Source of the DNA: the human T2T-CHM13v2.0 reference genome, Homo sapiens
Assembly: GCF_009914755.1 (NCBI RefSeq)
Contig: NC_060931.1
DNA length: 64,000 nucleotides
Direction: 5' to 3' (one strand)
Shown here: positions 34,560 to 38,140 of the stretch, piece after piece
Numbering within the stretch: the stretch's first letter is position 1
How the letters are laid out: every line of letters starts with the position of its first letter
The notes under the pieces: model-generated
The model's input: only the letters and a program-made list of their open reading frames with translations
What the model was told of the DNA's origin: nothing
Database searches by the model: none
Position numbers and translations under genes: made by a program

Positions 34560-37500
34560 CAAAAAAAAAAAGATCCCTGGCTGTGCGTGGTAGCTCACAC
34601 CAGGAATCCCAGCACTTTGGGAAGTCAAGGCAGGAGCATCCCTTGAGCCCAAGAGTTGGAGACCAGCTTGGGCAACATAGCAAGACCTTCTCTCTACCAA
34701 AAATTTAAAAGTTAGCCAGGTGTAGCAGGGTGGGCCTGTAGTCTCAGCTACTTGGGAGGCTGAGACGGGAGAATTGCTTAAGCCAAGGAGGTCAAGGCTG
34801 CAGTGAGTCATGCTTGTGCCACTGCACTCCAGCCTGCGCGACAGAGGCACAGCCTGTCTCAAAAAAAAAAAAAAAAAAATCCCTATTTGGTAATTTTTCA
34901 CACATTAGGGAGAAAAAAGCAGTGTCAACTTGGTCACCTCAAAATTTCACAAGGAGGGAGAATCTCATCTACAACACATATATGATAAATCATCTTTAAA
35001 TCATCTTTGAGTCATGATTAAAAATTTTTTTAAAAGAGAGTATGAAGAAAAAGAGAAAGTTTAGATTAAAATGGGGCACTCCAAATACAACTGTTCTCTC
35101 TAATCCACAGACTTTTTTTTTTTTTTTGAGACAGAGTTTCGCTCTTGTGGCCCAGGCTGGAATGCAATGGCACAATCTTGGCTCACTGCAACCTCTGCCT
35201 CCTGGGTTCAAGCGATTCTTCCATCTCAGCCTCCCGAGTAGCTAGGATTACAGCTACTTTTCTTTTTTTTTTTTTTTTTTTTTTTTTTTTGAGACGGAGT
35301 CTCACTCTGTAGCCCAGGCTGGAGTGCAGTGGCATGAACTTGGCTCACTGCAAGCTCCGCCTCCCGAGTTCATGCCATTCTCCTGCCTCAGCCTCCTGAG
35401 TAGCTGGGACTACAGGCGCCCGCCACCACGCCTGGCTAATTTTTTGTATTTTTAGTAGAGACGGGGTTTCACCGTGTTAGCCAGGATGGTCTGGATCTCT
35501 TGACCTCGTGATCCACCTGCCTCGGCCTCCCAAAGTGCTGGGATTACAGGCATGAGCCACTGTGCCCGGCCTAATTTTTGTATTTTTGTAGAGATGGGGT
35601 TTCACCATGTTGGCCAGGCTGGTCTTGAACTCCTGACATCAGGTGATCCACCCACCTCAGCCTCTCAAAATGCTGGGATTACAGGCGTGAGCCACTGCGC
35701 CCGGCCCTAATCCACAGACTTTAGAGCATGCTTTTAGTAAGACAAGTTATCATAGGTTGGCATCCATGAAGGCTGTTTTTGTTTAAGACAGGGTCTCGCT
35801 TTGCCACTCAGGCTGGAATGCAGTGGCACAGTCATGGCTTACTACAGCTCCAAACTCCTGGGTTCAAGCAATCCTCCCACCTCGACCTCCCAAAGTGTTG
35901 AGATTACAGAGGTGAGTCACCGTGCCTGGACTAATGTTTTTAGAGCTTGTAGAGATAATTGCTATAGACTGGTAACCATTTTCGGTTGAGATTTCCCCAA
36001 GATCTTATTCTAAATATTGATTTATTTTAGGAAACATTCCTAAAATATTTTTCCTGATTCATTTTCTGCTGTGCACAAAAAGGTTAATGAAATATTAAAA
36101 ATGCTGCAATAAAATATTGAAAATGTCTTATATACCAGATATATACTGTATATATCTGTATATGTACCAGATACTGTATATATCTGGTATATAAGATATT
36201 TGGGGCTGGGAGTGGTGGCTCACGCCTGTAATCCCAGCACTTTGGGAGGCCGAGGCGGGCGGATCACGAGGTCAGGAGATCGAGACCATCCTGGCTAACA
36301 CGGTGAAACCCCGTCTCTACTAAAAATACAAAAAATTAGCCGGGCGTGGTGGCAGGCACCTGTAGTCCCAGCTACTCGGGAGGCTGAGGCAGGAGAATGG
36401 CGTGAAGCCTGGAGGCGGAGCTTGCAGTGAGCCAAGATCGCGCCACTGCACTCCAGCCTGGGCAACAGAGCGAGACTCCGTCTAAAAACAAACAAACAAA
36501 CAAAAAACCAGATATTTGGATATGAAGAATCACGCTTAACTTTTTATGTTTGACCATACAGAGGACCAATTATTAATTCAACTGGGTTTCCATTTTCCCT
36601 ACTTAATGAAAAATTCCTAGGTCTCAGTGAATCTGACTTTGAGAAAAATTTGTGGAATGTAAAATCAGTAAACGGAAACGCACGAACGTCGAATTTCCCA
36701 TGGAAAAATACAGTAAAGGCTATGAGCACAAGCACACTATAGTTTGTTCCCATCTTCAGTTTTACATTCAGAAAACAGGTATAGCTTCATGTATGTTATT
36801 TTATTGATCGATGATTGATTAGTATAGTGGCATGATCTCGGCTCCCTGCAAACTCAACCTCCCAGGCTCAGGTGATTCTCCCACATCTAGCTTAATGTAT
36901 TAATGATGTAATAGACAATTACTGGCCAGGCGCGGTGGCCAGAGCGAGACTCCATCTCAAAAAAGAAAAGAAAAGAAAAGAAAATTACTGGCGGCAAGCA
37001 GGAACATTGTAGATTTTGAAACTGTCTTGTTTTACAAGATACTGAAGCAAGGTGGTGCAATTATTACGTCCTTCTAAAGCTGATCGGATAAAGGCTTTAA
37101 TTTTGTAATTTTCAGAGAATATTACCAATGTAGCAAGATTTACCAATAACCAATGGTTGCTTGAAGACAAAAGAGTTTGTTGGAACTTGCTGAATAAATT
37201 GATGTGCCATCAGTGTATTTTTTACATGATACATGCTGAAAAAAATCTGTCCTTGATTCTGTGCAAAGGAAGATGCTGAAATTGGTGTGCATATGCAGGG
37301 AAAGTCAAGATGCAGATGGAAACTGGGATTATTTTGTTAACTCAAAAACCAATTGGCAGGGTGCGGTGGCTCACGCCTGTAATCCCAGCACTCTGGGAGG
37401 CCGAGGTGGGCAGATCACCTGAGGTCAGTAGTTCGAGACCAGCCTGGCCAACATGGTGATACCTCGTCTCTACTTAAAATACAAAATTAGCCCCCATGGT

Positions 37501-38140
37501 GGTGCATGCCTGTAATCCCAGCTATTTGGGAGGCTGAGGCAGGAGAATCACTTGAACCCGGGAGGCAGAGGTTCCAGTGAGCAGAGATTGCGCCATTCCA
37601 CTCTAGTCTGGGCAACAAGAGTAAAAACTCCATCTCAAAAAACAAACAAACAACCCCCCAAAAAAGCCAATTAAATTGTTTCATAGTCACATTTCTAGAT
37701 CCAAACTTTTAGGACAATTTTTTTCTCTAGTGATTATGTATAGCAGCAAGAGCAGACAAAAATATTATAAATTAAAAATAAGTTAGTACAACAACCTTAC
37801 ATCTGCTTCTGAAAATATTGTGCATCTTCTTTAAACAGTACACAAAAAGCTTCAGTCAGTGAAATTGCTTAATGAAATGCCAGTACCATCCAAAGAATTT
37901 TTAAGGCCAAGAATTAAATAGGAAGAATTTCTTGTCTTAATATATTCCTATTCAAGGAAGGAACATTTAATAAGTTGGTGGTAATATTACCATATTAAAG
38001 CAGAGAGGTAGCCTTGCTTTCTATGGAGCTCAGTTGGAAGTCTTATTTAGTAATACAAATGTCCCTGTTAAATGGCCATAGGAGCATCTGACAGAAATTG
38101 TTGTTCTTGCCTTATAACATCAAACTTGAAAACTTTACTA
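34560..38140 (+). mobile_element. Decayed BED-finger + hAT transposase (ZBED/Ac-like) coding fossil, interrupted by Alus
   Basis: Colinear motifs across frameshifts and stops: PIW*FF...CQL(G)HLKISQGGR...MINHL (34882-34996, BED finger); LVEIIAIDW*PFSVE (35946-35990); PDIW..LCLT (36508-36558); LLAASRNIVDF (~36985-37017); LQDTEARW (37032-37055); TFLDPNF (37689-37709); EHLISWW (37961-37981); LEVLFS (38034-38051); KLLFL..N (38095-38118). Confidence 0.78.
36127..36195. repeat. Perfect 20-bp inverted repeat with an overlapping palindrome
   Basis: CTTATATACCAGATATATAC (36127-36146) and GTATATATCTGGTATATAAG (36176-36195) are exact reverse complements. Confidence 0.9.

What the first reader, a model, noticed from the sequence alone, without database searches (positions are those of the whole stretch)
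34560..38140. Hidden ZBED-like gene fossil: BED zinc finger plus colinear hAT transposase between ZNF425 and ZNF398
Seen: removing the Alu insertions leaves ~1.7 kb of AT-rich unique sequence. On the + strand it encodes, in the correct order though with stops and frameshifts: a BED finger (KK.PIW*FF...CQL[G, one base from C]HLKISQGGR...MINHL), QTLEHAFSK, LVEIIAIDW*PFSVE, PDIW...LCLT, NTVKAM, LLAASRNIVDF, LQDTEARW..YY.LL, NNQWLLED, TFLDPNF, EEFL...HLISWW, LEVLFS and KLLFL..N. Established: these correspond to the hAT/Ac-type motifs IAxDxQPFS, TDxW (first catalytic Asp), DNAxNMxKA, QDVxTRWNS, ATxLDPRFK and the C-terminal dimerisation domain (WW...SERxFS...LxFL), shared by the domesticated intronless genes ZBED1/4/6. 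Inference: this is either an ancient autonomous hAT copy or a once-domesticated ZBED gene lost in primates. It lies in sense orientation downstream of the bidirectional promoter, reminiscent of ZBED6 nested in ZC3H11A. I found no terminal inverted repeats. The ORF track shows only a scrap of the BED finger.
Basis: partly seen in the sequence, partly recalled or inferred. Interest (0 to 1): 0.88.

Follow-up and report, generated by a model that had tools for sequence, protein, structure and literature searches.

The report
Decayed hAT transposon copy, not gene
The stretch is a badly decayed, Alu-riddled copy of an ancient cut-and-paste (hAT) transposon that has dozens of sister copies across the human genome, so it is an ordinary transposon fossil and not a lost ZBED gene.

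Summary
They are truly hAT-derived, but only an intermediate shows this. The window alone gives no Pfam BED or hAT hit (0 of 18 frames). Its similarity to ZBED4 and ZBED1 is at chance level (Z 0.4 and 0.5).

The sequence is not unique. At least 44 other human loci carry diverged copies. A DNA profile built without the window matches it colinearly from 33171 to 38130, interrupted at Alu insertions. The crude family consensus has inverted ends (9 of 11 bases) about 2.6 kb apart. It aligns with ZBED4, ZBED1 and ZBED6 far above controls (232, 167 and 141 against 34-54; Z 48 and 32). Many copies are internal-deletion derivatives that keep both ends.

The window copy has at least 16 stops and 13 frameshifts. 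It is about 25% diverged, like its sisters, with no third-codon-position excess (p 0.59). It looks like neutral decay since insertion.

Verdict: an ordinary Ac-clade hAT fossil in a ZNF398 intron. Two things could not be checked here: the Dfam name and the orthologous interval in other mammals.

The parts
33171..33263 (+). 5' subterminal non-coding part of the hAT copy (family model about 254-339). It abuts an Alu on the left, and the terminal 210 bp or so with the 5' inverted repeat was not found.
   Evidence: nhmmer with a family model built without the window: E 3.4e-5, 3.1e-6. Alignment shown. The 5' terminal 260 bp of 10 sister copies gave no convincing blastn hit in window 30001-41000; the only one was a 22-bp match at 32028-32049 on the opposite strand, E 0.009.
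33866..34212 (+). 5' non-coding region of the hAT copy (model about 323-696). It continues part 1 across a two-Alu insertion at 33264-33865, flanked by the duplicated 'aaatct.atgatgtg'.
   Evidence: nhmmer E 2.4e-43 and 1.7e-48. blastn to the chrX copy gives 74.8% identity. Alu and target duplication read.
34873..35107 (+). BED zinc-finger region and the following basic stretch (model about 760-989). The window reads CQLGHLKISQGGR...INHL where the family consensus reads CQLCHLKIS.GGK...INHL.SRH.
   Evidence: nhmmer E 1.5e-19. Alignments. The consensus region against the BED fingers of ZBED6 and ZBED4 scores 48-60, with 0 of 300 shuffles reaching that. The window region directly against the same fingers is not significant (92-176 of 300 shuffles reach it).
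35709..35772 (+). Short linker piece between two Alu insertions (model about 996-1056), containing QTLEHAFSK.
   Evidence: Weak on its own: nhmmer E 0.035. It is in the right order and on the right strand.
35944..36103 (+). Start of the transposase core (model about 1072-1258). LVEIIAIDW*PFSVE corresponds to consensus LVKIIAIDCQSF and to ZBED4 IAEMIALDLQPYSF.
   Evidence: nhmmer E 1.1e-14. Consensus-to-ZBED4 alignment.
36514..36788 (+). Catalytic-core part (model about 1285-1563). It holds PDIW (the position of the first catalytic Asp motif), NTVKAM, and the remains of the CF.HT..L motif.
   Evidence: nhmmer E 4.9e-8; E 0.001 for 36586-36774. Family depth here is only 3-6 copies.
36938..37354 (+). 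Middle of the transposase (model about 1658-2021): LQDTEARW (consensus LIQDVQK.W, ZBED4 LIQDVPSKW) and NNQWLLED.
   Evidence: nhmmer E 5.3e-35 for 37089-37354 and 4.4e-36 for 37011-37354. Single-sequence nhmmer from the chrX copy covers 36938-37337 at E 1.1e-14. Own-genome hits on chr4 and chr10 at 71-74% identity.
37663..38137 (+). C-terminal part with TFLDPNF (consensus LDSRFK, ZBED4 LDPRYK) and the hAT dimerisation region (HLISWW...LEVLFS...KLLFL). An Alu follows, and the last 140 bp or so with the 3' inverted repeat was not found.
   Evidence: nhmmer E 1.7e-38 and 2.1e-41. It aligns to the chrX copy stretch that carries Pfam Dimer_Tnp_hAT. A search of 37600-39600 for the 3' end found nothing.

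Best explanation
Window 33171-38137 is one old, dead copy of an autonomous DNA transposon of the hAT superfamily. It belongs to the Ac clade, the clade that also gave rise to ZBED1, ZBED4 and ZBED6. The copy sits in an intron of ZNF398, in the same orientation as the gene.

The original element was about 2.6 kb long. It had short terminal inverted repeats (TAGGGATGCAC at one end, TAGAGGTGCAC read inward from the other). It had one open reading frame for a transposase made of a BED zinc finger, a catalytic core and a C-terminal hAT dimerisation domain. It moved by cut-and-paste and left dozens of copies, many of them internally deleted non-autonomous derivatives.

This copy then decayed neutrally. 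It lost both tips, picked up about 25% substitutions, at least 16 stops and at least 13 frameshifts, and was split by about ten Alu-derived insertions. It has no present coding function.

Shown: family membership, the hAT/Ac nature of the family, and the decay pattern. Inferred: the cut-and-paste mechanism, and an age of roughly 100 Myr or more. The age comes from a Jukes-Cantor distance of about 0.31 to the consensus and a recalled neutral rate of about 2.2e-9 per site per year.
For: Multi-copy:
- Own-genome DNA searches found diverged copies (66-81% identity) at 44 other loci on many chromosomes. This is a lower bound, because the tool scores only the best candidates.
- nhmmer found significant matches in 34 of the 34 held loci searched.

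Window membership:
- A profile built from other loci only gives 8 colinear + strand hits from 33171 to 38130, with E from 2e-43 to 0.035. The breaks coincide with Alu insertions. The only other hit is a minus-strand one at E 0.95.

Transposon anatomy:
- The consensus ends are inverted repeats, 9 of 11 bases.
- At least 10 copies keep both ends with internal deletions.

hAT/Ac nature:
- The chrX sister copy scores 22.8 bits on Pfam Dimer_Tnp_hAT (cut-off 21.4), and E 0.0016.
- The crude family consensus against 11 intact human hAT-derived ORFs scored ZBED4 232, ZBED1 167 and ZBED6 141. The other 8 scored 37-54, and the minus strand scored 34-48.
- Shuffled-protein nulls were 40.2+/-4.0 and 39.1+/-4.0, giving Z 48 and 32.
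- ZBED4 residues 559-1140 align to consensus 747-2430 with 150 of 605 identities, running through the BED CCHH, IAIDxQ, CFxHT, LIQDVxxxW, LDxRFK and W...SERLFS motifs.
- ZBED1, ZBED4 and ZBED6 are placed in the Ac family by PMC3606216 (passages read).

Decay:
- The window against the consensus conceptual protein scores 292 on the + strand and 40 on the minus strand, with 184 of 572 identities, 13 frameshifts and 16 stops.
- The window is 25.4% diverged from a consensus that excludes it; sister copies are 20-29.5%.
- Mean pairwise distance is 0.359 for window-to-other pairs and 0.385 (sd 0.034) for other-to-other pairs.
- Mismatches by codon position are 25.4%, 28.4% and 26.5%, chi-square p 0.59.
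Against: - The window copy alone has no significant similarity to any hAT or BED model or protein, so the call rests on transitive homology through a family consensus.
- That consensus is crude: depth is 3-8 copies over most of the coding part, with 17 stops and 8 frameshifts left in the ZBED4-guided path.
- Pfam zf-BED hit none of the 78 single-frame translations tried: 18 from the window, 12 and 48.
- A PDB sequence search with the best-looking natural BED stretch gave only chance hits.
- Target-site duplications could not be shown. Identity of the 8-bp flanks averaged 3.0 of 8 against a null of 2.42 (sd 1.33) for 9 copies.
- The window copy has neither terminus.
- The window copy is slightly less diverged than the family median, ranking 5th lowest of 35 in mean pairwise distance.
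- No other mammal could be examined.
Confidence: 0.9

Rival explanations
1. A once-domesticated ZBED-like host gene: a hAT transposase co-opted at this locus, kept under selection for a time, then lost in the primate lineage.
For: - The copy is one of the most complete of those held. It covers about model 254-2529 of 2756. Only the chrX copy (29-2736) is longer, and the chr19 copy covers 121-1983.
- It is in sense orientation in a ZNF398 intron, according to the hub annotation.
- Its mean pairwise distance is slightly below the family mean, 0.359 against 0.385.
Against: - Divergence lies inside the sister-copy range of 0.343-0.430.
- There is no excess of third-position changes (p 0.59).
- There are at least 16 stops and 13 frameshifts.
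- It belongs to a family with at least 44 other dispersed copies.
- No exon is annotated in the interval (hub table).
- A short early period of constraint cannot be excluded with these data.
Confidence: 0.04
2. The fossil no longer codes for anything but has been reused as a non-coding regulatory element, for example an intronic enhancer or a binding platform for ZNF398/ZNF425 regulation.
For: It lies between RefSeq-listed functional elements. The nearest listed enhancer is 38906-39479, just outside the element (hub annotation). Old DNA-transposon fragments are sometimes exapted; this is general knowledge, recalled.
Against: - None of the functional elements named in the hub table overlaps 33171-38137; nine further ones are not itemised there.
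- Divergence equals that of sister copies, which argues against sequence constraint.
- About ten Alu-derived insertions were tolerated.
Confidence: 0.05
3. The motifs are chance resemblances in AT-rich sequence and there is no transposase homology at all.
For: Direct tests on the window alone are all negative: Pfam, tblastn, and frameshift-aware alignment (Z 0.4-0.5).
Against: - DNA-level homology to a family model built without the window is very strong (E down to 2e-43) and colinear over about 5 kb of window.
- That family's consensus matches ZBED4 and ZBED1 at Z 48 and 32 on the + strand only.
Confidence: 0.01

Closest known systems
hAT superfamily DNA transposons, Ac family (the clade of maize Ac and housefly Hermes, as divided into Ac and Buster families in the work cited by PMC3606216)
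   Same: - Short terminal inverted repeats starting TAG.
- One transposase gene with an N-terminal BED finger, a catalytic core with the CF.HT..L and LIQDV...W motifs, and a C-terminal hAT dimerisation domain ending in SERLFS.
- Internally deleted non-autonomous derivatives.
- The consensus resembles only the Ac-derived human proteins, not the other 8 hAT-derived ORFs tested.
   Different: All copies seen are dead. 8-bp target-site duplications could not be demonstrated. The window copy lacks both termini.
Human ZBED4, ZBED1 and ZBED6 (domesticated Ac-family hAT genes)
   Same: Same domain order and motifs. ZBED4 559-1140 aligns to the family consensus at 150 of 605 identities.
   Different: - Those genes are single-locus intact ORFs of 1175, 706 and 996 codons open, with strong Pfam hits.
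- The window copy is one of dozens of decayed paralogues and shows no selection signature.
- About 25% identity to the consensus is far too low for the copy to be a pseudogene of any of them.
- ZBED6CL/C7orf29, about 0.7 Mb away on chr7, scores at null level (38).
Catalogued ancient mammalian hAT fossils in Dfam/Repbase (for example OldhAT1, DF000001275; the Charlie, Blackjack and Zaphod families are recalled names)
   Same: Same kind of object: old, fragmented, Alu-interrupted hAT copies found by profile searches rather than BLAST (bioRxiv 10.64898/2026.04.14.718546, passages read).
   Different: No Dfam or Repbase library was available, so I could not assign the family name. OldhAT1 is described there as Tetrapoda-age with no full-length insertions. 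This family still has a near full-length copy on chrX, so it may be a different, younger family.

Membership tests
hAT superfamily transposon | C-terminal hAT dimerisation domain (Pfam PF05699) | tested here: met
   Met for the family: the chrX sister copy scores 22.8 bits against a cut-off of 21.4 and E 0.0016. The consensus C-terminus aligns to the ZBED4 dimerisation region. Not met for the window copy on its own (0 of 18 frames), but its 37663-38137 piece is homologous at DNA level to that chrX stretch.
hAT superfamily transposon | Transposase catalytic core homologous to known hAT transposases or their derivatives | tested here: met
   Family consensus against ZBED4, ZBED1 and ZBED6 scores 232, 167 and 141, against 34-54 for controls; Z 48 and 32. 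The window directly scores 40-43, which is null level.
hAT superfamily transposon | N-terminal BED zinc finger (CCHH) | tested here: inconclusive
   For: consensus 691-960 against four BED fingers scored 33-60. For 3 of the 4 fingers, 0 of 300 shuffles reached the score; for the fourth, 7 of 300 did. The reverse strand was not significant. The CQLC...INHL.SRH spacing is visible. Against: Pfam zf-BED hit 0 of 78 natural single-frame translations, and the PDB sequence search was negative.
hAT superfamily transposon | Short terminal inverted repeats | tested here: met
   Consensus ends are TAGGGATGCAC and, read inward, TAGAGGTGCAC: 9 of 11 bases. That these fit the hAT YARNG pattern is recalled, not tested. 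The window copy itself has neither end.
hAT superfamily transposon | 8-bp target-site duplications | tested here: inconclusive
   For 9 copies with both ends, mean identity of the flanking 8-mers was 3.0 against 2.42 (sd 1.33) for 72 mismatched pairs. The signal is expected to be mostly erased at this age.
hAT superfamily transposon | Dispersed multi-copy family with non-autonomous deletion derivatives | tested here: met
   At least 44 other loci. At least 10 copies keep both ends around internal deletions.
Domesticated ZBED gene (extant or lost) | Signature of purifying selection after insertion (fewer changes than neutral sister copies; third-codon-position excess) | tested here: not met
   25.4% diverged, against 20-29.5% for sisters. 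Codon positions 25.4%, 28.4%, 26.5%, p 0.59. 16 stops and 13 frameshifts.
Domesticated ZBED gene (extant or lost) | Intact orthologous ORF at the syntenic locus in other lineages | not testable with these tools
   No non-human vertebrate genome is held. The genome tools cover this genome and prokaryotes only.
Named Dfam/Repbase family | Match above the gathering threshold to a curated consensus or HMM | not testable with these tools
   No Dfam or Repbase library is available. Only passages about OldhAT1 were read.

The most novel reading that the evidence does not exclude
The family is an Ac-clade hAT that is absent from, or only fragmentarily modelled in, current repeat libraries. The window copy and the chrX copy would then be its only near-complete autonomous members. 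A properly built consensus could reveal the transposon lineage nearest to the ZBED4/ZBED1/ZBED6 domestications. Alternatively, the window copy had a brief early period of host constraint that these low-power tests missed.
Probability: 0.06. Interest if true: 0.35.

Novelty: already known. Interest (0 to 1): 0.1.

Why it matters
It mostly matters as a correction. A motif-by-eye reading correctly spotted transposase remains, but the 'hidden ZBED gene' idea does not hold. The locus is an ordinary neutral transposon fossil of a kind that fills a few percent of the human genome.

There is one useful by-product. This copy and the chrX copy are unusually complete representatives of an old Ac-type hAT family. 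They could help refine that family's consensus if it is poorly modelled.

Tried and rejected
- Pfam on single-frame translations of the window found no BED or hAT hit in 18 frames. The only hits were DUF7829, DIOX_N and LysM2_NFP, all below cut-off.
- tblastn with 11 intact human hAT-derived ORFs against the Alu-masked region gave nothing significant, on both strands alike. The same queries against four sister loci gave nothing below E 0.5.
- Pfam on sister copies found only Dimer_Tnp_hAT, in 1 of 12 frames, and no BED or hAT hit in 48 further frames.
- A PDB sequence search with the chr8 copy's BED-like stretch returned only PDCD10 chance hits at E about 0.09.
- The search for the window copy's own termini found neither: the 5' end by blastn and both ends by nhmmer --max.
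- The target-site duplication test was inconclusive.
- The divergence-from-consensus column was off by one column and is discarded. One search is the corrected version.
- A second consensus gave shorter tblastn hits than the first because indel noise broke the frames. That is why I wrote the frameshift-aware aligner.
- OldhAT1 was considered as the family name, from recall. It could not be tested, and its description (Tetrapoda age, no full-length copies) fits poorly.
- A literature search for ZNF398 + hAT + transposon found 0 papers.
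Full report
**What is in the sequence.** The interval 34560-38140 is a mosaic of Alu elements and AT-rich non-Alu segments (GC 0.23-0.40 against 0.5-0.58 in the Alus). 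They total about 1.8 kb. The literal observation is correct.

**Direct tests on the window fail.**
- Pfam on 18 single-frame translations (stops read as X) gave no zf-BED, Dimer_Tnp_hAT or other hAT hit at E<=10.
- I took the long open frames of 11 human loci that match Pfam Dimer_Tnp_hAT. Three of them carry Pfam zf-BED and Dimer_Tnp_hAT and lie where I recall ZBED1 (chrX/Y PAR, 706 codons open), ZBED6 (chr1, 996) and ZBED4 (chr22, 1175) to be. The gene names are my assignment from position and length.
- tblastn of all 11 against the Alu-masked region gave only E>=0.14 hits, equally on both strands.
- A frameshift-aware protein-to-DNA aligner that I wrote scored the de-Alu'd window at 36-47 against the 11 proteins, the same as its reverse complement at 35-46.
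- ZBED4 and ZBED1 scored 42 and 40 against shuffled-protein nulls of 39.8+/-5.8 and 38.2+/-3.5.

**The sequence is not unique.** Searching the window's own genome with three non-Alu segments found diverged matches on chr4, chr10, chrX and elsewhere on chr7, at 67-81% identity. A third segment found only itself. Using the chrX copy as query gave 44 matches at 66-86% identity, apart from one 96% segmental duplicate on chrX. The 3' part gave further loci. Counting distinct places over searches gives 44 loci besides the window. This is a lower bound, because the tool scores only the best candidates.

**The window belongs to that family.**
- I built nhmmer profiles iteratively from the held loci with the window excluded (31 loci, 34).
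- The window-free model hits the window in eight colinear + strand pieces: 33171-33263 (E 3.4e-5), 33866-34212 (2.4e-43), 34873-35105 (1.5e-19), 35709-35772 (0.035), 35944-36095 (1.1e-14), 36586-36774 (0.001), 37089-37354 (5.3e-35) and 37663-38130 (1.7e-38).
- The only other hit is a minus-strand one at E 0.95. One search gives the same picture, with 36514-36788 at 4.9e-8.
- The breaks fall at Alu insertions. Two junctions show the small model overlap expected from Alu target duplications (339/323 and 2021/2012). I read those duplications directly.
- The copy covers about model 254-2529 of 2756. Its two tips were not found.

The element therefore spans at least 33171-38137, not 34560-38140. 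At least ten Alu-derived pieces interrupt or adjoin it, by my reading.

**What the family is.**
- The crude consensus places the two inverted ends about 2.6 kb apart (positions 43 and 2667 of the 2731-base consensus). They read TAGGGATGCAC and, inward from the other side, TAGAGGTGCAC (9 of 11). Both have subterminal TTTGGCCAAA-like repeats.
- At least ten copies keep both ends around internal deletions, for example chr4 150.0 Mb with model 36-964 joined to 2341-2669. This is the usual pattern of non-autonomous derivatives of a cut-and-paste element.
- The chrX copy carries Pfam Dimer_Tnp_hAT (22.8 bits against a cut-off of 21.4; E 0.0016), in the stretch that aligns to window 37708-37993.
- The consensus was built from DNA alone. 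It scores 232, 167 and 141 against ZBED4, ZBED1 and ZBED6. The other eight hAT-derived ORFs score 37-54, and the reverse strand scores 34-48. The Z-scores are 48 and 32.
- ZBED4 559-1140 aligns to consensus 747-2430 with 150 of 605 identities. The alignment runs through a BED-type CCHH finger, IAIDxQ, CFxHTxxL, LIQDVxxxW, NQW, LDxRFK and W...SERLFS.
- The BED part is supported separately against the BED fingers of ZBED6 and ZBED4: scores of 48-60, with 0 of 300 shuffles reaching them. ZBED1's finger scored 33, with 7 of 300 shuffles reaching it, and the reverse strand was not significant.
- Pfam zf-BED recognised none of the 78 natural single-frame translations tried, and a PDB sequence search was negative. 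I therefore rate BED as likely but not proven.
- ZBED1, ZBED4 and ZBED6 belong to the Ac family of hAT (PMC3606216, passages read), so the family is Ac-type.

**Fossil or lost gene.**
- Against the consensus conceptual protein the window scores 292 on the + strand and 40 on the minus strand. It has 184 of 572 identities, 13 frameshifts and 16 in-frame stops over 34914-37978.
- It is 25.4% diverged from a consensus that excludes it (26.8% in the coding part). The 34 sister loci are 20-29.5% diverged, although they contributed to the consensus and are therefore biased low.
- A comparison free of that bias uses mean pairwise distances: 0.359 for the window against others (31 pairs), and 0.385 with sd 0.034 for others among themselves (427 pairs). 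The window ranks 5th lowest of 35, within the range 0.343-0.430.
- Mismatches to the consensus are even across codon positions: 112 of 441, 126 of 443 and 114 of 430 (p 0.59). The pooled sister copies behave the same way (p 0.10).

This is the pattern of neutral decay since insertion. It leaves no room for a long period as a constrained host gene, although a short early one cannot be excluded. A Jukes-Cantor distance of about 0.31, with a recalled neutral rate of about 2.2e-9 per site per year, suggests an age of the order of 100 Myr or more. That is an inference, and consensus noise inflates it.

**Context.** The copy lies in a ZNF398 intron, in sense orientation, about 13 kb downstream of the ZNF425/ZNF398 promoter region (hub annotation). 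No exon or named functional element overlaps it. The orientation is a one-in-two event, and I found nothing to support the ZBED6-in-ZC3H11A analogy. ZBED6CL/C7orf29, about 0.7 Mb away, scores at null level against the family (38).

**Limits.**
- No Dfam or Repbase library and no non-human vertebrate genome were available, so the family name and the syntenic test remain open.
The consensus is therefore thin (3-8 copies) over most of the coding region.
- Target-site duplications are unresolved.
- OldhAT1 was a recalled candidate name. The passages read describe it as Tetrapoda-age without full-length copies, which fits poorly.
- A search for ZNF398 + hAT + transposon found no paper.

**Verdict.** The object is an ordinary, already-known kind of thing: a dead copy of an old multi-copy Ac-type hAT transposon. 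The lost-ZBED-gene reading is not supported.

Noticed in passing
L054 (G000 chrX:57130850-57131400) against L049 (chrX:20.47 Mb): A 552-bp stretch of the chrX hAT copy recurs on chrX at 96% identity, far above the 66-80% seen between true sister copies. This looks like a later segmental duplication, not a separate transposition. I left it out of the family model.
   Followed up: partly
window 35111-35707 and 32636-33175: There are Alu-in-Alu nestings. Two minus-strand Alus are nested at 35111-35707, flanked by the duplicated 'ctaatccacagac'. An older minus-strand Alu at 32636-33175 is split by a younger one, and its poly-A end appears to be missing. That may mark a deletion that also removed the hAT 5' tip.
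   Followed up: no
window 36931-36984: A very short Alu remnant, with head and tail joined and most of the body deleted, is flanked by the duplicated 'aattactg'.
   Followed up: no
window 36105-36206: A TA-rich local duplication ('ccagatat...tgtatatatctg' repeated) lies inside the element and has no counterpart in the family model.
   Followed up: no
window 53552-53610 (minus strand): A weak nhmmer hit (E 5e-4) appeared only with the model that included window sequences and not with the window-free models. It is probably chance or a tiny unrelated AT-rich match.
   Followed up: partly
G000 chr7:151044332-151044562 (L011/L043): An intact 738-codon open frame with a Pfam hAT dimerisation domain lies about 0.7 Mb distal to the window. 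Its position fits ZBED6CL/C7orf29 as listed in PMC3606216. It shows no detectable relation to the window's family (score 38).
   Followed up: partly
window 34506-34573: A 68-bp non-Alu stretch between two Alus was not aligned by any model, but its length matches the 64-position gap in model coordinates (696 to 760). It is probably a further, very decayed piece of the same element.
   Followed up: no
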